Of a stretch of 64,000 nt of DNA, positions 45,350 to 58,559 are shown piece after piece. Positions within the stretch are counted from its first letter, which is position 1. Every line of letters begins with the position of its first letter. The stretch is taken from the NCBI GenBank assembly GCA_964619265.1, contig CAZUCE010000017.1, forward strand, positions 1-64,000, in the 5' to 3' direction. Made by a program: the position numbers and the translations under genes. Origin of the DNA: an uncultured Planctomycetaceae bacterium (GTDB lineage Bacteria > Planctomycetota > UBA1135 > GCA-002686595). Below the pieces are notes generated by a model. The model had not been told where the DNA came from. It was given only the letters and a program-made list of their open reading frames with translations, and did not search any database.

Positions 45350-45360
<11 letters not shown>
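44473..45360 (+). CDS. ppk2: polyphosphate kinase 2 (PPK2 family, single-domain)
   Basis: Walker A FQAMDAAGKDGTIR. Lid and Walker B regions typical of PPK2. 295 aa. Confidence 0.9.
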
Positions 45361-46899
<1,539 letters not shown>

Positions 46900-46903
<4 letters not shown>

Positions 46904-47601
46904 AAGCGGGTCAAGCCCAAGTCGTCAACGAAACCAGCGAGTTCGAAAGAGCCGCCGTCGATTTCGCCGAAAAAGCCCTGAGCGAAGCTCTCGCCGAACG
47001 AGGCACGGCTTCGGTCGCCCTCGCCGGGGGGGGCACGCCACGTGGCATGCATCGCCTGTGGGCCACGAGTTCGAAGCTCGCCTGGGGCGAGATCGATCTG
47101 TTCTTTGGGGATGAACGCTGCGTTCCGCCCGACGACGAACAGTCGAACTACCGCGCTGTGCTCGAAGACTTCCTCTCGGCGTTGCCGCTGCCAGGTCCAC
47201 GGGTTCACCGGATTCGGGGCGAGGAGACCGATCATCAGCGCGCCGCGAGGCGTTATGCGGCCGAACTCCCCGATCGTCTGGACCTACTGATTCTGGGCGT
47301 TGGGCCCGATGGGCATACCGCTTCGATCTTCCCGGGCGATGCGGCGGTCCTAGCCCAAACCCAGGCCCGGGCGTTTGCGGTCGAAGCCCCGAAGCCGCCG
47401 GCCGAGCGAATCACGATCACGCCTCCGGTGTTGGTCGGCGCTCGCAAGATTCTCGTGCTCGCCCGCGGCGAAGACAAAGCTCAGGCGATCTTCGAGGCGC
47501 GCCATGGTCTTTGGGATCCGTTGGTCACTCCCGCGCAACTCGCCCGGCGCGGTACCTTCCTCCTCGACGCGGCTGCGGCCCGTCTTGAGCCTTCCGCCTG
47601 A
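46900..47601 (+). CDS. pgl: 6-phosphogluconolactonase
   Basis: LAGGGTP and GVGPDGHTASIFPG motifs. GTG 46900 overlaps the zwf stop (GTGA); the ORF-track TTG at 46882 is the alternative. Confidence 0.85.
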
Positions 47602-47612
47602 CTCCCTCTCTC

Positions 47613-49025
47613 ATGCCCGATTCGCCCGCGCGCTCGTTCGCTGTTCTCGGTCTTGGAACGATGGGGAGCAACTTGGCCCTCAATGTTCTCGATCACGGCT
47701 TCCCAATCGGTGCTTACAACCGCAGCGCCGATGGCCGCGAGGCCTTCTCGGCTCAGTTGGAAGGCCGGGATGCTGTCGTGACCGGAGATCTTCGCGAGTT
47801 GGTTGAGGCCCTGGAGCGCCCACGCCAGCTGCTGTTGATGGTGCCTGCTGGCAAGATCGTCGACGCGGTCATCGGGGAGGTTGCCCCCTTGCTCGAGCCT
47901 GGCGACATCGTGATCGACGGGGGCAACTCCTGGTACGAAGACACCGAGCGCCGGGACGCCGATCTCACGAAGCGAGGGCTTCGCTTCTTGGGCGTCGGAA
48001 TCTCGGGCGGTGAGGAAGGCGCTCGTTTCGGTCCCAGCCTGATGCCCGGTGGCGATGCTGAGGCCTACCGCGCACTGGCGCCGCTGCTGGAAGCGATTTC
48101 AGCCAAGACCGAGTCCGGACCGTGCGTGACTCACGTGGGTCCCGGGGGATCGGGGCATTTTGTCAAGATGGTGCACAACGGCATCGAATACGCCGACATG
48201 CAATTGATCGCAGAGGCCTACGACCTGCTGCGCCGGGGACTCGATCAGGAGGTCGGCGCGGCGGCAGACGTGTTCGAGCGCTGGAACGAAGGGGCCTTGC
48301 GCTCCTTCCTGATCGAAATCACGGTTCCGATTCTCCGCAGGCTCGATTCCGACGGAACGCCGCTGGTGGAACGCGTCCTCGATCGCGCCGGTCAAAAGGG
48401 AACCGGACGCTGGACGGCTTCGATTGCTCTCGAATTGGGTGTCGCGGTTCCCTCGATCGCGGCTGCTGTCGACGCCCGCGTGCTGTCCTCCCAAAAGGAA
48501 GCGCGGGTTCAGGCCGAGGCCCTGCTGGGTCCGCTCGACACAACCCAGAACTTCGAGCTCTCTTTGAAGGACCTTGAGTCGGCTCTTCTGCTCGCCAAGT
48601 CCTGCGCTTACGCCCAGGGGTTCGAGCTAATCCGCGCCGGATCCGACAAGTTCACATGGAACGTCGACCTGGCCGAGACCGCTCGCATTTGGAAAGGCGG
48701 CTGTATCATCCGCGCCAGGTTATTGGATGACATCCGCGCTGCCTTCGGTTCCAAGCCGGAGCATCCGAACCTCTTGCTGACTTCGGCGTTCCGCGACTTG
48801 GTGCGCGAGCATCACACGGGGCTGCGGCGGACCGTGGCGTTCGCGGCGGAGCGGGGCCTTCCCGCTCCGGCGTTTGCCACAAGCCTGGCCTACCTGGACG
48901 CCCTGAGAACCGGCCGGCTGCCCCAGAGCCTGACGCAGGCCCAGCGGGATGCGTTTGGCGCTCACACCTACGTGCGAGTTGACGATGCGGAAGGCCAGGC
49001 GGTTCACACCGACTGGCTCAGCTGA
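47613..49025 (+). CDS. gnd: 6-phosphogluconate dehydrogenase (decarboxylating)
   Basis: GLGTMGSNLALN Rossmann motif and GSGHFVKMVHNGIEY. 470 aa. Confidence 0.95.
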   Translation: MPDSPARSFAVLGLGTMGSNLALNVLDHGFPIGAYNRSADGREAFSAQLEGRDAVVTGDLRELVEALERPRQLLLMVPAGKIVDAVIGEVAPLLEPGDIVIDGGNSWYEDTERRDADLTKRGLRFLGVGISGGEEGARFGPSLMPGGDAEAYRALAPLLEAISAKTESGPCVTHVGPGGSGHFVKMVHNGIEYADMQLIAEAYDLLRRGLDQEVGAAADVFERWNEGALRSFLIEITVPILRRLDSDGTPLVERVLDRAGQKGTGRWTASIALELGVAVPSIAAAVDARVLSSQKEARVQAEALLGPLDTTQNFELSLKDLESALLLAKSCAYAQGFELIRAGSDKFTWNVDLAETARIWKGGCIIRARLLDDIRAAFGSKPEHPNLLLTSAFRDLVREHHTGLRRTVAFAAERGLPAPAFATSLAYLDALRTGRLPQSLTQAQRDAFGAHTYVRVDDAEGQAVHTDWLS

Positions 49026-50490: not shown

Positions 50491-52518
50491 ATGTTCCTTG
50501 CCGAACGACTCGCGTTACTTGATGTTTCCAAGCGCACCCTTCTTGGCCTCAGTCCGGGGCTGATGCTCGGCCCAGGGCTGCTGCTGTGGACTCCTGTTGC
50601 CTTCGGGCAAACTTATTTCGAGGACGTCACCCTCGACCTTGGCGTTGCCTTTGAGCACGCCGACGGAAGCTTCACTTACGCGATGGGCGGCGGCGCGGCT
50701 TGGCTTGACTACGATCGCGACGGCGATGACGATCTCTTGGCGTCTAGCTCGGACGGCCGGCACGGTTTGTTCCGGAACGAGGGATCCAGTTTCACGGACG
50801 TCAGTGCAAGTTCGGGCCTGTTTGTTTCGCAGCTAACGGACTCGATCGGTTCGCTCGTATTCGATCACGACTCCGATGGTTGGATCGACATCTACTTCAC
50901 GAATGCCGATCGAAACGAGCTGTTTCGCAATGCGGGGGACGGGACCTTTGACGAAATCGGCGGTTCGCTCGGGATCGATTCGGACTCCTGGACTTCCTGC
51001 GCGGCCGCGGCCGACTTTGATCTGGACGGAGACCTCGACCTGTACCTAGGGAATTACATCGAGACCCTGAACTTCCCGTATCACTTCGGGGCACCGAATC
51101 AGTTTTTCCGGAATGTTGGGACCGCTACGGAGCCGGCCTTCGAGGAACAAGCTGTTGCGCTCGGGATCGACAACACGATTGTGTTCGGGGCCGGCAATCC
51201 GTTGTTTCCCCAGTTCCTCGCTCCGACTGGGCTGCCGAGCGGAGGCTGCACGCTTTCGGTGGTCACCCCTGATCATGACGAAGACGGGGATCCGGACCTG
51301 ATGGTCGGCAACGACTTTGGGCTGTTCGTCTCGCCCAACCGGTTTTTCCGAAACGACTTCGCGCCGGGGACTGGGCTGGTTTTTGCCGATGTGACCACCC
51401 AAACCGGCTTCGACGTCCGGCCGCATTACAACATGGGCATCGCGCAATGCGACTTTGACCACGACGGAGATTGGGACTACTACAAGTCGAGCCTGGGCGA
51501 CAATCTGCTGCTGCGCAACGACGACGGCTTGTTCACGGAAGTGGTCTATGACGCTGGCCCAGTGGAAGGGCAGAGTCCGGTCCCGGGTCTGCTGCTCACT
51601 TCCTGGGGCACTGTTTTTCAGGATCTCGACAACGACGGCTGGGAAGATCTCTATGTGTCGAATGGCCTGATTCCGGCCGCGAATTTTATTCTCAACGACG
51701 AGGATGCACCGAACGGCTTGCACCTGAACAACGCCGATGGGACCTTCACTCAGGTTCCGTATGCGGACTCGGGAGCTGACGACCAGGGCGCGGGGCGTGG
51801 TGTGGCCTGGTACGACGTCGATCGCGACGGGTTGTTGGATTTTTACCAGATGAACAACGGCGCGCCCGGCGTCGGAGAATTGGGCGAGCGCTGCGCGCTG
51901 TATCGCAACACCGCGGCGTCCCTTGGCGAGGTGGGTTCCTATGCGCGCGTTCGGCTGCGGTCGCGTGCGGACAACTGGGAGGCCATCGGTTCGAGGCTGG
52001 TTCTAGAGGCAGGTGACTTGACCCTGCGCCGGCAGATCACCGCTGACCAGATTTACCTGTCGAGCCCCAGCCGCGAAGTCCACTTCGGATTGGGCGACAA
52101 CGCCTTCGTGGATCGCGTGTCGATCGACTGGCAAACCGGAGTCCATTCGGAGCTAGTGGACCTTCCGGCGCCGGTCACCGGAGAGGTGCTTGAGCCCATC
52201 GCGCTCATGACCGAATTGCTCGACCCGGTTTGGATCCCAAGCGAGGCACACCTTCGGTTCCAAGTCAGGCTTGTGAACACGACCGATGCTCCGCTGACGG
52301 TCAGCGGCCTGTTGCAGATAGCCCTGCCCGACAAAACGAGCGTGGTCGATTTGCCTTCCTCGGCGACACTCCCGCCCGGCGAGACGCTGGTGACCCAAGT
52401 CTTGAGGGTTGCTCCTGAGGTGCACGCGTTGTTTGAGGGACAGCCCTTCCGCGTGAGGGCCTACGTGGTAGCCGATGGTGGCGTGGACAGCCGGGCCCTC
52501 GATTTTCTGCTTCCCTAG
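50491..52518 (+). CDS. secreted FG-GAP/VCBS-repeat protein with C-terminal ASPIC/UnbV domain (CRTAC1-like)
   Basis: Signal peptide. Repeated FDHDSDGWIDIY / DFDLDGDLDLY / DHDEDGDPDL calcium-binding FG-GAP motifs. UnbV_ASPIC motif YLSSPSREVHFGLGD..VDRVSIDWQTG. Confidence 0.8.
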   Translation: MFLAERLALLDVSKRTLLGLSPGLMLGPGLLLWTPVAFGQTYFEDVTLDLGVAFEHADGSFTYAMGGGAAWLDYDRDGDDDLLASSSDGRHGLFRNEGSSFTDVSASSGLFVSQLTDSIGSLVFDHDSDGWIDIYFTNADRNELFRNAGDGTFDEIGGSLGIDSDSWTSCAAAADFDLDGDLDLYLGNYIETLNFPYHFGAPNQFFRNVGTATEPAFEEQAVALGIDNTIVFGAGNPLFPQFLAPTGLPSGGCTLSVVTPDHDEDGDPDLMVGNDFGLFVSPNRFFRNDFAPGTGLVFADVTTQTGFDVRPHYNMGIAQCDFDHDGDWDYYKSSLGDNLLLRNDDGLFTEVVYDAGPVEGQSPVPGLLLTSWGTVFQDLDNDGWEDLYVSNGLIPAANFILNDEDAPNGLHLNNADGTFTQVPYADSGADDQGAGRGVAWYDVDRDGLLDFYQMNNGAPGVGELGERCALYRNTAASLGEVGSYARVRLRSRADNWEAIGSRLVLEAGDLTLRRQITADQIYLSSPSREVHFGLGDNAFVDRVSIDWQTGVHSELVDLPAPVTGEVLEPIALMTELLDPVWIPSEAHLRFQVRLVNTTDAPLTVSGLLQIALPDKTSVVDLPSSATLPPGETLVTQVLRVAPEVHALFEGQPFRVRAYVVADGGVDSRALDFLLP

Positions 52519-52531
52519 CAGCCGGTGAAGG

Positions 52532-52562
52532 GGCGAGCGCATCGGCGCTCTCCCTGTTTTCA
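52532..52562 (+). terminator. intrinsic terminator after the FG-GAP gene (GAGCGC-ATCG-GCGCTC stem followed by CCTGTTTTC)
   Basis: Seen directly, 14 nt after the stop. Confidence 0.45.
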
Positions 52563-52581: not shown

Positions 52582-52628
52582 GACGATTCGCGCGGGCTAG
52601 ACTGCCGTCCATGAACGTGCGAATCGTC
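52582..52628 (+). promoter_or_regulatory. 12-bp hairpin (GACGATTCGCGC / GTGCGAATCGTC) enclosing the selenoprotein start codon in its loop
   Basis: Arms at 52582-52593 and 52617-52628, with one G-U pair. ATG 52611 sits in the 23-nt loop. Confidence 0.4.
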
Positions 52629-52865
52629 TACTGCCACTTGTGAGGCTACGCGGAGCAAGCGGCGAGTTACGCCGCTGCGATTCGCGAAGCCACTGGCCTG
52701 GAGGTTCAGACCGAGGCCGGGACTCGCCGCGGGCAATTCGAGGTGTTCGTGAACGACAGCTCGACCTTCAAGCGGCGCGGAGGACTGATCAAGAGGATTC
52801 TCGGCAAGCCCTTCGAGCCGCCCGATCAGGCGATCGAAGCCGTGCGGGCTGCCGTCGCCAAGTGA
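52611..52865 (+). CDS. selW: SelW-like (Rdx family) selenoprotein with in-frame UGA (Sec) at 52641-52643: MNVRIVYCHL-U-GYAEQ...GQFEVFVNDSSTFKRRGGLIKRILGKPFEPPDQAIEAVRAAVAK
   Basis: Not in the ORF track because of the internal TGA. ATG 52611; C-x-x-U redox motif (YCHLU) exactly where Rdx proteins have CxxC/CxxU; the rest matches the Rdx consensus (FEV..dg..ifsk....fP). Sustained codon bias through and beyond the TGA. 84 aa. Confidence 0.7.
52655..52678 (+). promoter_or_regulatory. candidate bacterial SECIS element (9-bp stem with 1-nt bulge, AGUUA loop) starting 11 nt after the UGA
   Basis: GC(A)AGCGGCG-AGUUA-CGCCGCUGC. The spacing to UGA (11 nt) matches the canonical bacterial SECIS geometry. 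Confidence 0.55.
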
Positions 52866-53614
52866 GCGCTTCCGAAGATTGCGGCAAGTGGGACTTTTAC
52901 ACGTGTCAGGTTGAAGATCGGCCGGGATCGATCTTCCTGAACCTGGATCTAGCGGGGGAACATCCGCCGCTCGACACGATGTACTTCGCGGCGATCGAGC
53001 TACTGGACCCCGCAGAGCACGGGATGGGATCCAAGGCCGAGGCGGAACTCATGGGACCCCTTGAGGACGGCATCCTGGAGGAACTGCGGGCCATGGGGTT
53101 GTGCTTTGTTGGCCGGCTGCGGAACAACTCGGCCTGGCAGTTGACGCTTTATGGGGAAGCCGGGCGTGACGCGGATTTGGAGCAAGTCATCTCCGAGGCT
53201 CTCCAGGGCGGGAAGCGCCGTTTTCAGGTTGGAAGCGGGCCGGACCCGGAGTGGAGCTACTACCACGGGTTCCTCTATCCGAACACCGAGCGCTGGCAGT
53301 GGATGCAGGATCGCAAGGTGGTTCAGGCCTTGACGAACAACGGAGACGCCGGCCAGCGTTCCCGCGAAGTCGATCATTGGGCCGGGTTCGAAGCGGAGCC
53401 CTCTCGTGCGGCTTTTGTGGCTTCCGCGGAGAAGCTCGGGTTCTCGGTTCGCGCGTTGCCCGAACCGAAGGGGGGGCTCTATTTGGTTCAGGTCGTTCGC
53501 GAAGATCCAGTGCTGCTCGAGCACATCCATCCGGTCGTGATGCAGCTCGTCGATTTGGCGGAGCAGAACGGCGGGACCTATGACGGCTGGGAGTCTCCGG
53601 TCGTGTCGACCTGA
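52862..53614 (+). CDS. DUF695 + RraB (regulator of ribonuclease activity B)-like two-domain protein
   Basis: GTG 52862 overlaps the selW stop (GTGA). DCGKWDFYTCQVEDRPGSIFLNLDL (DUF695-like) then a YYHGFLYPNTERWQWM ... RraB-like C-terminus. The first 74 residues of the ORF-track version are selW read in another frame. Confidence 0.7.
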   Translation: MSASEDCGKWDFYTCQVEDRPGSIFLNLDLAGEHPPLDTMYFAAIELLDPAEHGMGSKAEAELMGPLEDGILEELRAMGLCFVGRLRNNSAWQLTLYGEAGRDADLEQVISEALQGGKRRFQVGSGPDPEWSYYHGFLYPNTERWQWMQDRKVVQALTNNGDAGQRSREVDHWAGFEAEPSRAAFVASAEKLGFSVRALPEPKGGLYLVQVVREDPVLLEHIHPVVMQLVDLAEQNGGTYDGWESPVVST

Positions 53615-53675: not shown

Positions 53676-53720
53676 GGCCCGATCTCTCCCCCCGGAGAGA
53701 TCGGGCCTTTCGCTTCTTCC
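53676..53720. terminator. bidirectional terminator: 14-bp perfect stem GGCCCGATCTCTCC / GGAGAGATCGGGCC, loop CCCC, then TTTCGCTTCTTCC
   Basis: Seen directly between convergent genes. Confidence 0.65.
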
Positions 53721-54658: not shown

Positions 54659-55045
54659 GGGAGTTGGGCCTTTCGGAGGTTGGTGCTCAGGCTTTCGGGC
54701 CACCCCGCTTGGGTGGCCGCGCCGAGAGCCTTCGGAGCGCTGGCGGGTCTTCCCGCCGGCCCTGTGGTCTCGTGCCTAGTTCTTGGGGAAAGGCCCCGGG
54801 GGCTTTCGCTCCTGGGGGAAAATTCCCCCGGCGAACCGACTGGGGCAGCCGGGAGGCCCGCTTAGGGGAGGCGAGACCCCTCTGCGAGTGGCTGAAACCG
54901 CCGGACGGCCCCATCGGAAGCTGTCTCCGAATGCCCTCCGCCCTGCGGCGTAGAGTTGGGGGACGGGCTGTCAGGCCCGGCCCCCTGGCTTCTTCCAAGG
55001 GCTGGGGGCTTTCTTCAGCCCGATTCGAATCCCCGGTTCCCCCCT

Positions 55046-55807
55046 ATGGTTGTCGACATCACCACCGGCTTCGTCGGACGCCTGCGCGCTCGCGATCCTG
55101 ACGCTTGGTTCGAACTGTGGGAGACGTTTGGGCCCGTGATCAGTTCGCAACTCCAGCGCTGGGGGCGTGGCCAAATCGGCTTCGAGACGGTTCAAGATCT
55201 CTCCCAGGAAACGCTGACGGCTCTGGCTAGCGCGATCGACACCCACGATCCCTCGCGAGGAGTGCGCTTTTCGACCTGGCTGCTGGCGATCGCGCGCTAC
55301 ACGCTCACCGACGAATTCGACCGCCGCAACGCCCAGAAGCGGGGTTCTGGCAAGAAGCCTGTCGAGCTCGAGGCCGCCTCGGGCCAGGGCGACGGTCAAG
55401 CCGGGCCCGATGAGGTTTACGCCACGGCGATCTTCGGCGCCAAGGTCGATCGAGCCCTCAAGCTGGTCGAGCGCGAATCGGACTTCGTCGACTTCTCCGT
55501 CTTCCGGATGCGGATCCTCGAGGGTCAACCCGGCAAGCGGGTCGCCGGGGATCTGGGCCTTTCAGAGGCGGGAGTCAGCCGGCGGCTCACGAAGGTCCGA
55601 ACCGCCCTTAGAAGTCGCCTCAGCGAGGTCATGGAGCGATTCAGCTTCACGGAAGAGGAATTGAGCGAAGCGGAGCGCAAGGGGCTCGATCCAAATCCCA
55701 AGAAGGCTCAGGACGCCCTCTTCGATGAGGCGCTGGCGGAGATTTTCCATCGCTACAGCGCTTTTCGAACCCAAACCGAGGGGCCGGCGGGGGGCCTGGC
55801 CCGCTAG
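55046..55807 (+). CDS. RNA polymerase sigma factor, ECF family, with about 60-aa C-terminal extension
   Basis: Sigma-2 (LSQETLTALASAIDTHDP..FSTWLLAIARYTLTDEFDRR) and sigma-4 (GDLGLSEAGVSRRLTKVRTALR) regions. ATG 55046. Confidence 0.85.
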   Translation: MVVDITTGFVGRLRARDPDAWFELWETFGPVISSQLQRWGRGQIGFETVQDLSQETLTALASAIDTHDPSRGVRFSTWLLAIARYTLTDEFDRRNAQKRGSGKKPVELEAASGQGDGQAGPDEVYATAIFGAKVDRALKLVERESDFVDFSVFRMRILEGQPGKRVAGDLGLSEAGVSRRLTKVRTALRSRLSEVMERFSFTEEELSEAERKGLDPNPKKAQDALFDEALAEIFHRYSAFRTQTEGPAGGLAR

Positions 55808-55886
55808 CCGCCGAGGACCTCCCCGTCTTCGAGCCGCAGACTCCACAGAGCCACCGCCCAACCAAGCCTCCCCAAGGAGCCCGCCC

Positions 55887-58559
55887 ATGTCCGCCTTCTC
55901 AGGTGCCCTCTTTTCCTTTGTCGCTGCAGCGGCCGTGGTTTCCGCGGCCCTGGTGGCGGTGTTCGTGGTGGCCAAGGTTGCTTGGGGCATCGGTATGGCG
56001 ATCGGCGGAGTGTTCACCGGTGTTGGGCGGTTCGTCCTGCATATCGCCTCGACGCTGCGCGATTGGGTCACGGACGTCACTCGGATCCTGGGCGGAACCC
56101 TCACCGGCGTCGCCTACGTTCCGCTCTCCCTGTTCAGCGTCGCGCTTGGTCGCTGGTCGAGCGCGAAGCACTACGGCAAGGCGATGCGCGGCGAGTTTGG
56201 GCTCGCGGCGCTGTCGACCTACAAAGCCGGTATCTCGCATCCCCTGCGACTGATCGGTCTTGGTTCTCTACTCGATGGCTTTGAGCGCCGCCTGCCCGAG
56301 GTGGTGCTGTACGCGCCCGGCGCTGACACGCCGAAGGAAGGCAAGAACGCGTTCGAGGGCTGGAAGGTCGTGGGCTCGCTGCCGGCCGGAGGGTCTGGGG
56401 GCAAGCTGTACCTAGCCGAGCCGAAGGCCGAGAAAGTCGAGAAGCTTGCGCGGGTTGGCGTGACGGCCCCCGCCAAAGCGGTGATCAAGTCGTTCTCGTT
56501 GGCTTCGGGCTCGACCCTGCCCCAAATAGTTCGTGAGAGTCGCGCGCTCGAGGCGGCCAAAAGCCTCGGCCTGGTGGTGGAACACGAGCTGAGTCCGACG
56601 CGTTTCCACTATGTGATGCCGTTCGTGCCGGGGGAGGACCTGTCCAAGGTCTCGACCGCCCTGCACTCGCGGGCCGGCCGCAACGGCTTGCGCGACGCTG
56701 GCATTCGTGCCGTCATCGGCTATGGCGCTGGGCTGTGTGAAATTCTCGATCGCTTCCACGCGGCGGGCCTTTGGCACAAGGACATCAAGCCCTCGAACAT
56801 TCTGGTGTGCGGGGACCGCGTGGAACTGGTCGACCTAGGACTGGTGACGCCGCTCGGTTCGGCGATGACGCTGACCACCCACGGTACCGAGTACTACCGC
56901 GACCCCGAGATGGTCCGCCTCGCGCTCAAGGGCGTGAAGGTTCACGAAGTCGATGGCGTCAAGTTCGATCTCTACTCGACCGGCGCGGTGCTGTACTCGC
57001 TTGTGGAGGGCTCCTTCCCGGCGCATGGCAACCTCTCGAGTTTCTCGAAGCGTTGCCCGGACGCGCTGAGCTGGGTGATCCGCCGTGCGATGGCGGATGT
57101 CAACCAGCGCTACGCCGGCGCTGACGAGATGCTGACCGATTTGCGAGTCTTGCTCGCCGCAACCGATCCGTTCAGCGTAAAGCCGGCCGATTTGCCCTCC
57201 ATGGGCGGCAGCCGCTCCGCGGTACGTCCCGTGCCGGCGCCGCCGGAAGAACTGGTTCCCGCCGAGTTCGCCTCCGATACGGACACTCCTTCCCCGGATG
57301 CCTCCGAGGGAGCCCCGCCGCCGTTGCCGTTGCACCGGCTTTCAGCGCACGAGTTGCGCCAAGAAGTTCGTCGCGCCGCTCGCGACACAGCACGGGAGGC
57401 TCGCGTGCGTGCTCGCCGCGTGGGTTCCCAAGCGAGGAAGGAAGCTCGGGCCGCGGCGGGTAGGGCTACTTTGGAGGCTCGCCAGGCACTGCGCGCGGCC
57501 AACGTGCGCGCCAAGGAGCAGGCTCGCGCCGCTTTTGCGGCGTCCGAGGAGTGGCACGTCAAGCGCCGCATGACGAAGGAGAAGTCTCGCCAGGAAACCC
57601 AGGAGAGGCGGAAGACCCGTTCGCGTCAGAGCGCTACCGGCTTCCTCGCGCTGTTTGCGGTCGGTTTCCTGTGGATCGTTGCCATGAGTTCGAACGGGGA
57701 ACGTCCGGGCGGCGGAAATCCGGTGGAGGTGCCCGTTGTTCAAGGGCTGATCCGGGCGCAGTCCAAGGAGATTCAGAGGGTCCACGAGCAACTCATCAGC
57801 CAGGGCCGCACCACCCCGCGTCCGCCGCGCAGCCTGAATTCAACCGGCAGCCTGACTTCAGCCGGAGGCAAGCAAGCTCCCCAGGTCCTCCTGCTCTCCG
57901 AGCGCCCGCTGGTCGCCGGCGTGGACGCCGAACGCCGGCTCGCCGCGGCCCTCGAGCAACAGCTCGGCTGGCGCGTGCTCGGCGAAGAAGGAACTCTCCC
58001 GCGAAGCGGCTCCGAGTTGGACCTGCTGGCTCGGGTTCGCAGCACGGCAGGCCTCAGTTCGCTGGGCGACAGCGCGGCTTCCAAGCGACTGGTCGATCTG
58101 ATCGAACGCCGCGACGACCTGGACGCGATCGTGTGGTTCGGAGTTGACGAAGGTGAACACCTCCAGGTCGAGCTGCTGGCCCCGCGCAATACAGATTGGG
58201 GGGCTCAATGGGACCTCGGACGGGTGCGGCCAAACGAACCTAGCCGGACTCCGGATCAGCTCTCCCGAGATTTGCGTGGGCTGGAGCGGGATCTGAGAGA
58301 GCTGTTCGACCAGATGGGTTCGAATCAGGTTCTGCGCCAGGCGTTCGAGTCCCGGGAGTTCGAAGGCGGCTTCGAGAATCAGTTCCAGGGTTTGGAGCGG
58401 TTTGAGGGTCGGGAAGTCCTCGAAAACAGCCTGTTCGGCGAGCCCATCCAACAGGAGTGTGGTGGCTCCGAACCGGCGCCCTCGTGCCAGAGCCTGATGG
58501 AGTCCTGCTGGGAGGAGCCGGGCTCCTGCGCAAACGGGCGGCTCGCTCACGCCGGCTAA
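55887..58559 (+). CDS. polytopic membrane Ser/Thr protein kinase (N-terminal TM bundle, kinase core, TM, large C-terminal extracytoplasmic domain)
   Basis: ATG 55887 preceded by AAGGAG. 3-4 N-terminal TM helices, kinase motifs (KAVIKSF, WHKDIKPSNILV, VDLGL, YYRDPE), a second TM (FLALFAVGFLWIVAM), and a 280-aa C-terminal domain. Confidence 0.8.
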   Translation: MSAFSGALFSFVAAAAVVSAALVAVFVVAKVAWGIGMAIGGVFTGVGRFVLHIASTLRDWVTDVTRILGGTLTGVAYVPLSLFSVALGRWSSAKHYGKAMRGEFGLAALSTYKAGISHPLRLIGLGSLLDGFERRLPEVVLYAPGADTPKEGKNAFEGWKVVGSLPAGGSGGKLYLAEPKAEKVEKLARVGVTAPAKAVIKSFSLASGSTLPQIVRESRALEAAKSLGLVVEHELSPTRFHYVMPFVPGEDLSKVSTALHSRAGRNGLRDAGIRAVIGYGAGLCEILDRFHAAGLWHKDIKPSNILVCGDRVELVDLGLVTPLGSAMTLTTHGTEYYRDPEMVRLALKGVKVHEVDGVKFDLYSTGAVLYSLVEGSFPAHGNLSSFSKRCPDALSWVIRRAMADVNQRYAGADEMLTDLRVLLAATDPFSVKPADLPSMGGSRSAVRPVPAPPEELVPAEFASDTDTPSPDASEGAPPPLPLHRLSAHELRQEVRRAARDTAREARVRARRVGSQARKEARAAAGRATLEARQALRAANVRAKEQARAAFAASEEWHVKRRMTKEKSRQETQERRKTRSRQSATGFLALFAVGFLWIVAMSSNGERPGGGNPVEVPVVQGLIRAQSKEIQRVHEQLISQGRTTPRPPRSLNSTGSLTSAGGKQAPQVLLLSERPLVAGVDAERRLAAALEQQLGWRVLGEEGTLPRSGSELDLLARVRSTAGLSSLGDSAASKRLVDLIERRDDLDAIVWFGVDEGEHLQVELLAPRNTDWGAQWDLGRVRPNEPSRTPDQLSRDLRGLERDLRELFDQMGSNQVLRQAFESREFEGGFENQFQGLERFEGREVLENSLFGEPIQQECGGSEPAPSCQSLMESCWEEPGSCANGRLAHAG

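What the first reader, a model, noticed from the sequence alone, without database searches (positions are those of the whole stretch)
52611..52865. Unannotated SelW/Rdx-family selenoprotein gene with in-frame UGA and SECIS-like hairpin
A short gene invisible to the ORF caller encodes MNVRIVYCHL-U-GY... in which the TGA at 52641-52643 falls exactly on the second position of the CxxC/CxxU redox motif of Rdx (SelW/SelT) proteins. The downstream sequence (GQFEVFVNDSSTFKRRGGLIKRILGKPFEPP) matches the Rdx fold consensus. A 9-bp bulged stem-loop begins exactly 11 nt after the UGA, which is the canonical bacterial SECIS spacing. Reading through a UGA here means this organism should carry selA, selB, selD and tRNA-Sec elsewhere.
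Basis: partly seen in the sequence, partly recalled or inferred. Interest (0 to 1): 0.8.

Follow-up and report, generated by a model that had tools for sequence, protein, structure and literature searches.

The report
Uncalled SelW-like selenoprotein gene with SECIS
A small gene that gene finders miss because it contains an in-frame UGA is a genuine member of the well-known bacterial SelW-like (Rdx) selenoprotein family, with a conserved selenocysteine-insertion hairpin; it is real and correctly read, but an ordinary new member of a known kind.

Summary
Window 52611-52865 (+) reads MNVRIVYCHL-UGA-GYAEQ...AVAK-stop. With Cys, or even X, at the UGA it passes the curated thresholds of Pfam Rdx (36.5 and 29.4 bits against 22.6). 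With Cys it also passes TIGR02174 SelT/SelW/SelH (38 against 34.2).

The UGA sits at the U of CxxU in all 37 related loci I read (27 distinct sequences). These include planctomycete MAGs, the isolate Mariniblastus fucicola and soil and marine metagenomes. No locus has Cys there.

A hairpin follows the UGA, with -30.9 kcal/mol and z = -3.9. Its 6-bp apical stem and A-G-U-N-N loop are conserved in every relative, with 99.4% of cells paired and compensatory changes at 3 of 6 pairs. It meets all four criteria of the published bacterial SECIS model.

UGA is otherwise the normal stop here: 17 of 30 Pfam-supported genes end in it.

A predicted structure of a 42%-identical relative matches bacterial SelW-related crystal structures.

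Not shown: selA/selB/selC/selD of this organism, which are absent from the 64 kb; and selenium incorporation.

Bacterial SelW-like selenoproteins have been known since 2005, so this is a new, unannotated member of a known kind. It belongs to a subgroup with a 7-residue insertion.

The parts
52611..52865 (+). SelW-like / Rdx-family selenoprotein gene, 84 codons including Sec11, ATG start and TGA stop
   Evidence: Translation. Pfam Rdx 36.5 bits against GA 22.6, and TIGR02174 38 bits against 34.2. X control 29.4 bits. Differences from close relative L001 fall 5/4/20 by codon position.
52632..52643 (+). CxxU redox motif: TGC CAC TTG TGA (Cys8-His-Leu-Sec11)
   Evidence: Aligned with the CxxC of solved Rdx proteins 3DEX and 2LJK. 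The Cys codon varies TGC/TGT while TGA is invariant in 37 loci.
52644..52691 (+). Full hairpin immediately downstream of the UGA: 19 bp in three helices with bulges
   Evidence: MFE -30.9 kcal/mol, z -3.86, 0 of 200 shuffles as stable. Only the apical part is conserved in relatives.
52659..52675 (+). Conserved SECIS core: 6-bp stem GCGGCG/CGCCGC with 5-nt apical loop AGUUA (loop at 52665-52669, G at loop position 2, followed by U). It is encoded within Ala-Ala-Ser-Tyr-Ala-Ala.
   Evidence: 26 distinct sequences: 99.4% of cells paired, 3 of 6 pairs with compensatory changes, slid controls 21-74% paired. The loop lies 21 nt after the UGA. All four bSECIS criteria are met (PMC13188914).
52862..53614 (+). 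Downstream gene, DUF695 + RraB domains. Its GTG start overlaps the selenoprotein stop (GTGA), so this is probably a two-gene operon.
   Evidence: Pfam. GTG 52862 is the only usable start, because the relative L001 has a stop upstream in that frame. The same arrangement is present in L001/L002 but is not kept in distant relatives.
52535..52550 (+). Terminator-like hairpin after the upstream ASPIC/FG-GAP gene; likely 5' boundary of the transcription unit
   Evidence: Consensus scan only; weak evidence.
53676..53707 (+). 14-bp terminator-like hairpin after the DUF695/RraB gene; likely 3' boundary of the unit
   Evidence: Consensus scan only.

Best explanation
This is a functional gene for an 84-residue SelW-like (Rdx family) selenoprotein, in an uncultured and probably planctomycete bacterium.

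Translation starts at ATG 52611. At UGA 52641-52643 a SelB-type elongation factor carrying Sec-tRNA(Sec) is recruited by the hairpin just downstream in the coding sequence. That hairpin has a 6-bp apical stem and an AGUUA loop 21 nt after the UGA. Selenocysteine is inserted and translation runs on to TGA 52863.

The product has the small thioredoxin-like Rdx fold. Cys8 and Sec11 sit at the junction of strand 1 and helix 1, where they can cycle between a reduced selenol/thiol pair and a selenenylsulfide. The protein is therefore most likely a thiol-dependent redox protein.

Shown here: the gene, family membership, conservation of the UGA, and conservation and covariation of the hairpin.

Inferred: that the inserted residue is Sec, the presence of the Sec machinery, and the redox role.
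For: - Rdx and TIGR02174 matches are above curated cut-offs and span the UGA.
- TGA is at the same codon in 37 of 37 loci. These are the window; two ENA contigs; eight GTDB planctomycete MAGs; 26 JGI metagenome loci covering both this subgroup and canonical SelW-like genes; and the Mariniblastus fucicola isolate.
- The eight codons before the UGA vary mostly at third positions: entropy 8.0/4.2/11.4 by codon position. Window against L001 differs 5/4/20 by codon position. The reading frame is therefore under purifying selection on both sides of the UGA.
- The hairpin has -30.9 kcal/mol and z -3.86. The apical stem is 99.4% paired across 26 distinct sequences, with compensatory changes at 3 of 6 pairs, and A-G-U in the loop is invariant in 25 of 26 (one AGA).
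- All four criteria of the bSECIS model are met.
- UGA is the ordinary stop codon of this organism: 17 of 30 Pfam-supported genes end in it.
- An AlphaFold model of relative P0012 (42% identical; pLDDT 89.6) has the order strand-helix-strand-strand-strand-helix-helix. Its 20 best PDB matches are all bacterial SelW-related/Rdx structures, with TM 0.67-0.78.
- The literature reports SelW-like as the most abundant selenoprotein family in the Sargasso Sea, with few Cys homologues (PMC1088965, PMC1794560). Some Planctomycetes carry complete selA/B/C/D sets (PMC4807772).
Against: - No selA, selB, selD or tRNA-Sec lies in the 64-kb window or in any fetched flank. The Sec-decoding capacity of this organism is therefore inferred only.
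- No Rfam model exists to score a bacterial SECIS; only chance-level hits were returned.
- The two loop-closing positions of AGUUA (A and A) cannot pair as in the commonest bSECIS loop pattern.
- The structure was predicted for a relative carrying Trp at the Sec site, not for the window protein itself.
- No expression or selenium-labelling data exist.
Confidence: 0.9

Rival explanations
1. The UGA and hairpin are read by a SelB-dependent system, but the residue inserted is cysteine, or another amino acid, rather than selenocysteine. This happens in bacteria that carry a UCA-anticodon tRNA charged by CysRS ('recoding of Sec'; from my own knowledge of the literature, not checked here).
For: Nothing in the sequence distinguishes Sec from Cys insertion at a SECIS-directed UGA. 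The tRNA and the sel genes of this organism were not seen.
Against: Such systems are rare. UGA is kept in 37 of 37 loci over wide phylogenetic distance, with no TGC/TGT replacement. That fits a residue Cys cannot replace better than one that is Cys anyway.
Confidence: 0.04
2. It is a decaying pseudogene: a Cys-type Rdx gene hit by a TGC/TGT to TGA nonsense mutation.
For: TGC to TGA is a single-base change. No gene is called here in public assemblies.
Against: TGA is at this codon in all 37 loci, including distant subfamilies. Substitutions are biased to third positions on both sides of the UGA. A covarying hairpin sits at a fixed distance. The start codon is kept in all loci.
Confidence: 0.02
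3. The real product is the shorter protein that gene callers predict, starting after the UGA (for example the 67-aa P0001 or the 65-aa M. fucicola ORF). The upstream ten codons would then be a leader or a coincidence.
For: About 200 database entries of this subgroup are called in this truncated form.
Against: - The window has no start codon at the position used in the relatives. The first in-frame start after the UGA is GTG 52743, which leaves only 40 aa.
- The truncated form lacks strand 1 and the catalytic CxxU and scores below the Pfam threshold: 15.9 bits.
- The pre-UGA peptide (V/I)-(K/R)-I-(I/V/L)-(H/Y)-C-x-x is conserved with synonymous variation.
Confidence: 0.02
4. UGA is reassigned genome-wide (code 4 or 25), so the codon simply means Trp or Gly.
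For: Several database entries of relatives show W at this position (P0012, P0007, P0013-15).
Against: 17 of 30 Pfam-supported genes in the window end in TGA, including this gene itself. The W entries come from short contigs and are most simply gene-caller artefacts. Planctomycete MAGs and the M. fucicola isolate use the standard code (inference).
Confidence: 0.01

Closest known systems
Bacterial SelW-like selenoproteins (Zhang, Fomenko & Gladyshev 2005, PMC1088965; Zhang et al. 2006, PMC1794560); Pfam Rdx PF10262 / TIGR02174
   Same: - Length of about 80-90 residues.
- CxxU at the junction of strand 1 and helix 1.
- Sec encoded by UGA, with a SECIS hairpin inside the coding region just downstream.
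- Few or no Cys homologues.
- The canonical soil members found here (L027-L041) even share the A-G-U loop at the same distance, +25 to +27 from the UGA.
   Different: - The window protein and its planctomycete relatives carry a 7-residue insertion (R-[KR]-G-G-L-x-x-x-L) between strand 4 and the (K/R)-P-(W/F)-(P/E) turn. Canonical members read SK-x-x-x-GRFP there.
- The CxxU spacer is HL, or PT in relatives, instead of SA.
- Only profile positions 1-57 of 74 of Pfam Rdx align.
Solved bacterial Rdx / SelW-related proteins: 3DEX (SAV_2001), 2P0G (Vibrio cholerae), 2FA8 (Agrobacterium), 2OJL, 2OBK, 2OKA
   Same: Same fold: TM 0.67-0.78 to the model of relative P0012. Profile match E = 4e-4 to 3DEX, with the redox motif aligned.
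   Different: The two aligned here, 3DEX and 2LJK, carry CxxC, not CxxU. Sequence identity is 11-22%. No insertion helix follows strand 4.
Mammalian SelW (2NPB) and MIEN1/C17orf37 (2LJK)
   Same: Rdx family; the CxxU (SelW) or CxxC (MIEN1) motif is in the same place. Both are weaker fold matches: TM 0.56-0.58 normalised to the query, 0.43-0.55 to the target.
   Different: In eukaryotes the SECIS lies in the 3' UTR and has a different structure (PMC1088965 Fig. 7 legend). Here it lies inside the ORF, next to the UGA.
E. coli fdhF SECIS (established knowledge, not re-tested here)
   Same: A stem-loop directly 3' of the UGA, with G-U exposed in a small apical loop. In the window the upper 9-bp bulged stem starts 11 nt after the UGA, as in fdhF.
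   Different: No sequence similarity. In relatives the conserved stem starts 15-18 nt after the UGA, so the 11-nt figure is not the conserved feature.

Membership tests
Rdx family (Pfam PF10262) / SelT-SelW-SelH (TIGR02174) | Profile HMM score above the curated cut-off | tested here: met
   PF10262: 36.5 bits against 22.6 with Cys, 29.4 with X, 28.5 with Trp at the UGA. TIGR02174: 38 against 34.2. All 10 full-length relatives in A4 also match.
Rdx family (Pfam PF10262) / SelT-SelW-SelH (TIGR02174) | CxxC/CxxU motif directly after the first beta strand | tested here: met
   The sequence is IVY-C-H-L-U-GY. It aligns to the CxxC of 3DEX and 2LJK. In the model of relative P0012 the motif lies between strand 3-7 and helix 14-29.
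Rdx family (Pfam PF10262) / SelT-SelW-SelH (TIGR02174) | Thioredoxin-like beta-alpha-beta-beta-beta-alpha fold | tested here: met
   Tested on relative P0012 (42% identical), not on the window protein, which the tool would not accept with a stop codon. pLDDT is 89.6. The 20 best PDB matches are all bacterial SelW-related/Rdx chains, TM 0.67-0.78.
Rdx family (Pfam PF10262) / SelT-SelW-SelH (TIGR02174) | Thiol/selenol redox activity | not testable with these tools
   Biochemical property, inferred from the motif only.
Bacterial selenoprotein gene (Sec-decoding) | In-frame UGA conserved in orthologues, or paired with Cys in homologues | tested here: met
   TGA in 37 of 37 loci (27 distinct). Solved Rdx homologues have Cys there.
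Bacterial selenoprotein gene (Sec-decoding) | bSECIS model: apical loop of 3-9 nt with an upper stem of 4-16 bp; G in the first two loop positions; 16-37 nt from UGA to loop; MFE at or below -7.5 kcal/mol (PMC13188914, after Zhang & Gladyshev 2005) | tested here: met
   - Loop AGUUA is 5 nt.
- The stem is 6 bp, or 9 with the bulge.
- G is at loop position 2, followed by U.
- The spacing is 21 nt.
- MFE is -30.9 kcal/mol.
- The stem covaries.

bSECISearch itself was not available.
Bacterial selenoprotein gene (Sec-decoding) | selA, selB, selC (tRNA-Sec) and selD present in the same genome | not testable with these tools
   None is among the 40 long ORFs scanned, and there is no tRNA in the 64 kb. 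There is none in the flanks of relatives. The literature shows that some Planctomycetes have the full set (PMC4807772).
Bacterial selenoprotein gene (Sec-decoding) | Selenium actually incorporated | not testable with these tools
   Needs 75Se labelling or mass spectrometry.
NCBIfam NF041051 SelTWH_Campy (equivalog) | Score at or above 88 bits | tested here: not met
   34.9 bits. It is not a member of that Campylobacter-type equivalog.

The most novel reading that the evidence does not exclude
The DUF695/RraB-domain gene starts at a GTG that overlaps the selenoprotein's stop codon (GTGA at 52862-52865). No other start is available for it. Its translation, and through polarity perhaps its transcription, could therefore depend on ribosomes getting past the Sec-UGA 220 nt upstream. 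Expression of an RraB-like regulator would then be coupled to selenium supply.

Separately, the planctomycete clade would be a distinct Rdx subgroup that always carries Sec. Its helix-1 sequence (A-S-Y-A) would be dictated by the SECIS.
Probability: 0.12. Interest if true: 0.4.

Novelty: new member of a known kind. Interest (0 to 1): 0.22.

Why it matters
The main value is in annotation.
- It adds a selenoprotein to an uncultured, probably planctomycete, genome.
- It implies that the organism carries the Sec-decoding machinery.
- It exposes a systematic database error. About 200 public entries of this subgroup are truncated after the UGA, or carry Trp at the Sec position. This includes the cultured Mariniblastus fucicola, whose 65-aa fragment NCBI names 'SelT/SelW/SelH family protein'.

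It does not change what is known about selenoproteins. SelW-like genes with an in-ORF SECIS were described in bacteria in 2005-2006 and are abundant in marine metagenomes.

Tried and rejected
The post-UGA fragment was used instead and found mostly truncated relatives, plus three spurious coiled-coil repeat proteins.
- The first attempt at a genome scan with a nine-sequence alignment failed for lack of a conserved stretch. A four-sequence alignment worked.
- Rfam gave nothing at gathering thresholds and only chance-level hits at E up to 10 (a snoRNA and a miRNA model). There is no usable bacterial SECIS family.
- I looked for sel genes and tRNA-Sec among 40 long ORFs of the window and in 38 fetched loci. 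None was found.
- I looked for a second selenoprotein gene in the window through CxxU/UxxC TGA sites. The other 25 sites were not examined individually. The one checked (11888) lies out of frame inside an uninterrupted ORF, and all have weaker folds.
- I tested whether the upstream ASPIC/FG-GAP gene has a UGA-interrupted N-terminal extension, since that family is listed as a candidate selenoprotein in PMC4807772. No N-terminal extension through an upstream in-frame UGA was evident.
- I tested whether the link to DUF695/RraB or any other neighbour is conserved in distant relatives. It is not. Neighbours there are a beta-lactamase-fold protein, methylmalonyl-CoA mutase, arginine decarboxylase and a chlorite-dismutase-like protein, with no common theme.
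- Cluster look-ups to name the organism returned no names.
- Literature searches for Mariniblastus with selenocysteine found nothing.

Full report
**1. The observation**

The sequence at 52611-52865 on the + strand is as described. ATG is at 52611 and ten sense codons follow (MNVRIVYCHL). An in-frame TGA lies at 52641-52643. Then come 73 more sense codons and a TGA stop at 52863-52865.

A mechanical ORF list shows only a 40-aa GTG ORF in this frame. Public assemblies that carry the identical neighbouring gene call nothing in this interval.

**2. Family membership**

- With Cys written for the UGA, the 84-residue protein matches Pfam Rdx (PF10262) at 36.5 bits against a gathering score of 22.6 (E = 5.7e-9). 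It matches NCBIfam TIGR02174 'SelT/SelW/SelH family' at 38 bits against 34.2.
- The match does not come from the substitution. X at the site gives 29.4 bits and Trp gives 28.5. The fragment after the UGA alone gives only 15.9 bits, below threshold. The ten residues before the UGA therefore contribute about 13 bits, and the match spans the UGA.
- A profile of ten full-length relatives hits the solved Rdx proteins 3DEX, 2LJK (MIEN1) and 2P0G ('selenoprotein W-related'). In the two alignments shown (3DEX, 2LJK) the CxxC aligns with CxxU.
- An AlphaFold model of relative P0012 (42% identical; pLDDT 89.6) has the expected order: strand, helix, three strands, helices. Its 20 best PDB matches are all bacterial SelW-related/Rdx chains with TM 0.67-0.78. 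Thioredoxins, MIEN1 and mouse SelW follow.
- The Campylobacter-type equivalog NF041051 is not met (34.9 bits against 88).

**3. Conservation of the UGA**

I read 37 loci:
- the window;
- two ENA metagenome contigs 89% identical in protein;
- eight planctomycete MAGs from GTDB, either Pirellulaceae or Mariniblastus;
- 26 JGI metagenome loci;
- the genome of the cultured Mariniblastus fucicola.

All 37 (27 distinct sequences) have TGA at the U of CxxU. The neighbouring Cys codon alternates between TGC and TGT.

The eight codons before the UGA have summed entropies of 8.0, 4.2 and 11.4 bits at codon positions 1, 2 and 3. Window against L001 differs at 5, 4 and 20 sites by codon position over the whole gene. 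Both patterns mark a translated frame under purifying selection on both sides of the UGA.

The search patterns (GQF[DE]V[FL]VN and so on) lie downstream of the site, so they do not favour TGA.

No Cys homologue turned up in this subgroup. This agrees with the literature remark that SelW-like proteins have few Cys homologues in Sec-using organisms (PMC1794560).

UGA is not reassigned. 17 of 30 Pfam-supported genes in the window end in TGA.

**4. The hairpin**

- In the window, RNA 52644-52691 folds into a 19-bp interrupted hairpin. MFE is -30.9 kcal/mol against a shuffle mean of -21.2; z = -3.86, and 0 of 200 shuffles fold as well.
- Only the apical element is conserved in relatives. It is a 6-bp stem and a 5-nt loop beginning A-G-U. 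The loop lies 21 nt after the UGA in the window and in canonical SelW-like genes, and 24 nt after it in the Mariniblastus-type genes, which have one extra codon.
- On 26 distinct sequences, 99.4% of cells pair. Three of six pairs show compensatory changes: G-C/C-G; C-G/U-G/U-A; G-C/G-U/A-U. No shuffle reaches the observed covariation score. Registers slid by 1-3 columns pair only 21-74%.
- Some covarying positions are synonymous third positions. Others couple amino-acid changes (Val...Thr against Ala...Ala). RNA pairing is therefore selected in addition to the protein sequence.
- The element meets the four criteria of the published bacterial SECIS model as quoted in PMC13188914: loop 3-9 nt with stem 4-16 bp; G in the first two loop positions, usually followed by G or U; 16-37 nt from the UGA; MFE at or below -7.5.
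- Among 26 TGA sites in the window with a CxxU or UxxC context and open flanks, this site has the most stable downstream fold.

**5. Context**

The gene lies 92 nt after an ASPIC/UnbV FG-GAP gene, which is followed by a weak terminator-like hairpin at 52535-52550.

Its stop overlaps the GTG start (GTGA) of a DUF695 + RraB-domain gene at 52862-53614. That gene is followed by a 14-bp terminator-like hairpin at 53676-53707. GTG 52862 is the only usable start for the downstream gene. A two-gene operon is therefore likely.

This pairing is kept in the close relatives L001/L002 but not in more distant ones. Their neighbours share no theme.

The rest of the window is ordinary chromosomal sequence of about 65% G+C (topA, mutS, pckA, zwf-pgl-gnd, dapF). 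It also carries a planctomycete-style ECF sigma factor, Ser/Thr kinases and a sulfatase. Together with the Pirellulaceae and Mariniblastus relatives, this suggests a member of the Planctomycetota.

**6. What is not shown**

No selA, selB, selD or tRNA-Sec lies in the 64 kb or in the fetched flanks. The Sec-decoding capacity of this organism is therefore inferred from two things. One is the conserved UGA and SECIS. The other is the report that some Planctomycetes carry complete selA/B/C/D sets (PMC4807772). Selenium incorporation and redox activity are untested.

**7. Comparison with what is known, and novelty**

Bacterial SelW-like selenoproteins with CxxU and an in-ORF SECIS were described in 2005-2006. 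They were the most abundant selenoprotein family in the Sargasso Sea data, with 48 genes (PMC1088965, PMC1794560).

The present gene belongs to a subgroup, found mainly in planctomycete genomes among the named sources, that has a 7-residue insertion (R-[KR]-G-G-L-x-x-x-L) before the (K/R)-P-(W/F)-(P/E) turn. This is a minor variant.

In public databases this subgroup is almost always mis-called. About 200 entries are truncated after the UGA, including a 65-aa M. fucicola ORF that NCBI already names 'SelT/SelW/SelH family protein'. A few full-length entries carry Trp at the Sec site.

**8. Verdict**

This is a new, unannotated member of a known kind, and interest is low to modest.

The only less ordinary possibility is that the GTGA overlap makes expression of the RraB-like gene depend on Sec insertion. 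That is speculative.

Noticed in passing
L043:9951-10198 (Mariniblastus fucicola, GCA_001642875.1 contig LWSI01000030.1): The cultured isolate carries the orthologue ATG CAA ATC AAG ATC ATC CAC TGT CCG ACC TGA CAG..., which translates as MQIKIIHCPT-U-QSYVPKVASYA. The public annotation starts the gene after the UGA (65 aa), and NCBI names that fragment 'SelT/SelW/SelH family protein'.
   Followed up: yes
Database proteins P0012, P0007, P0013, P0014, P0015: Full-length public entries of this subgroup carry Trp at the Sec position (for example IIHCPRWKSY). The most likely cause is gene calling with a UGA=Trp table on short contigs. About 200 other entries are truncated after the UGA.
   Followed up: partly
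Database protein P0048 (86 aa, ENA, 660-nt contig): One relative reads YCET-R-TTTRTKAASF, with Arg where all others have Sec. This could be a real loss of the redox residue or a sequencing error.
   Followed up: no
window 50491-52518 (+): The gene directly upstream encodes an ASPIC/UnbV + FG-GAP protein. That family is listed among candidate selenoproteins of planctomycetes P1 and P2 (PMC4807772, Table S9). Here the 675-aa ORF is uninterrupted, and no UGA-bridged extension lies upstream.
   Followed up: yes
window 52862-53614 (+): The DUF695 + RraB-domain gene has a GTG start that overlaps the selenoprotein stop (GTGA). The same arrangement is found in the close relatives L001/L002 only. Coupling to Sec read-through is possible.
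   Followed up: partly
window 54956-58559 (+): An ECF-type sigma factor (Sigma70_r2, PF07638) is followed, with the mechanically listed ORFs overlapping, by a 944-aa protein with a Ser/Thr kinase domain. This pairing is typical of planctomycete genomes (my own knowledge).
   Followed up: no
window 45350-49025 (+): A compact pentose-phosphate cluster: zwf (G6PD), pgl (6-phosphogluconolactonase) and gnd (6PGD). A PPK2 gene and a radical-SAM gene lie just upstream.
   Followed up: no
L027-L041 (JGI soil metagenome loci): Canonical SelW-like genes (ILYCSA-U-GYKPRAASLAAS...FSKAKTGRFP) place the A-G-U of their SECIS loop at +25 to +27 from the UGA, exactly as in the window. This holds despite only 36-40% protein identity and a flipped closing pair (C-G against G-C).
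   Followed up: yes
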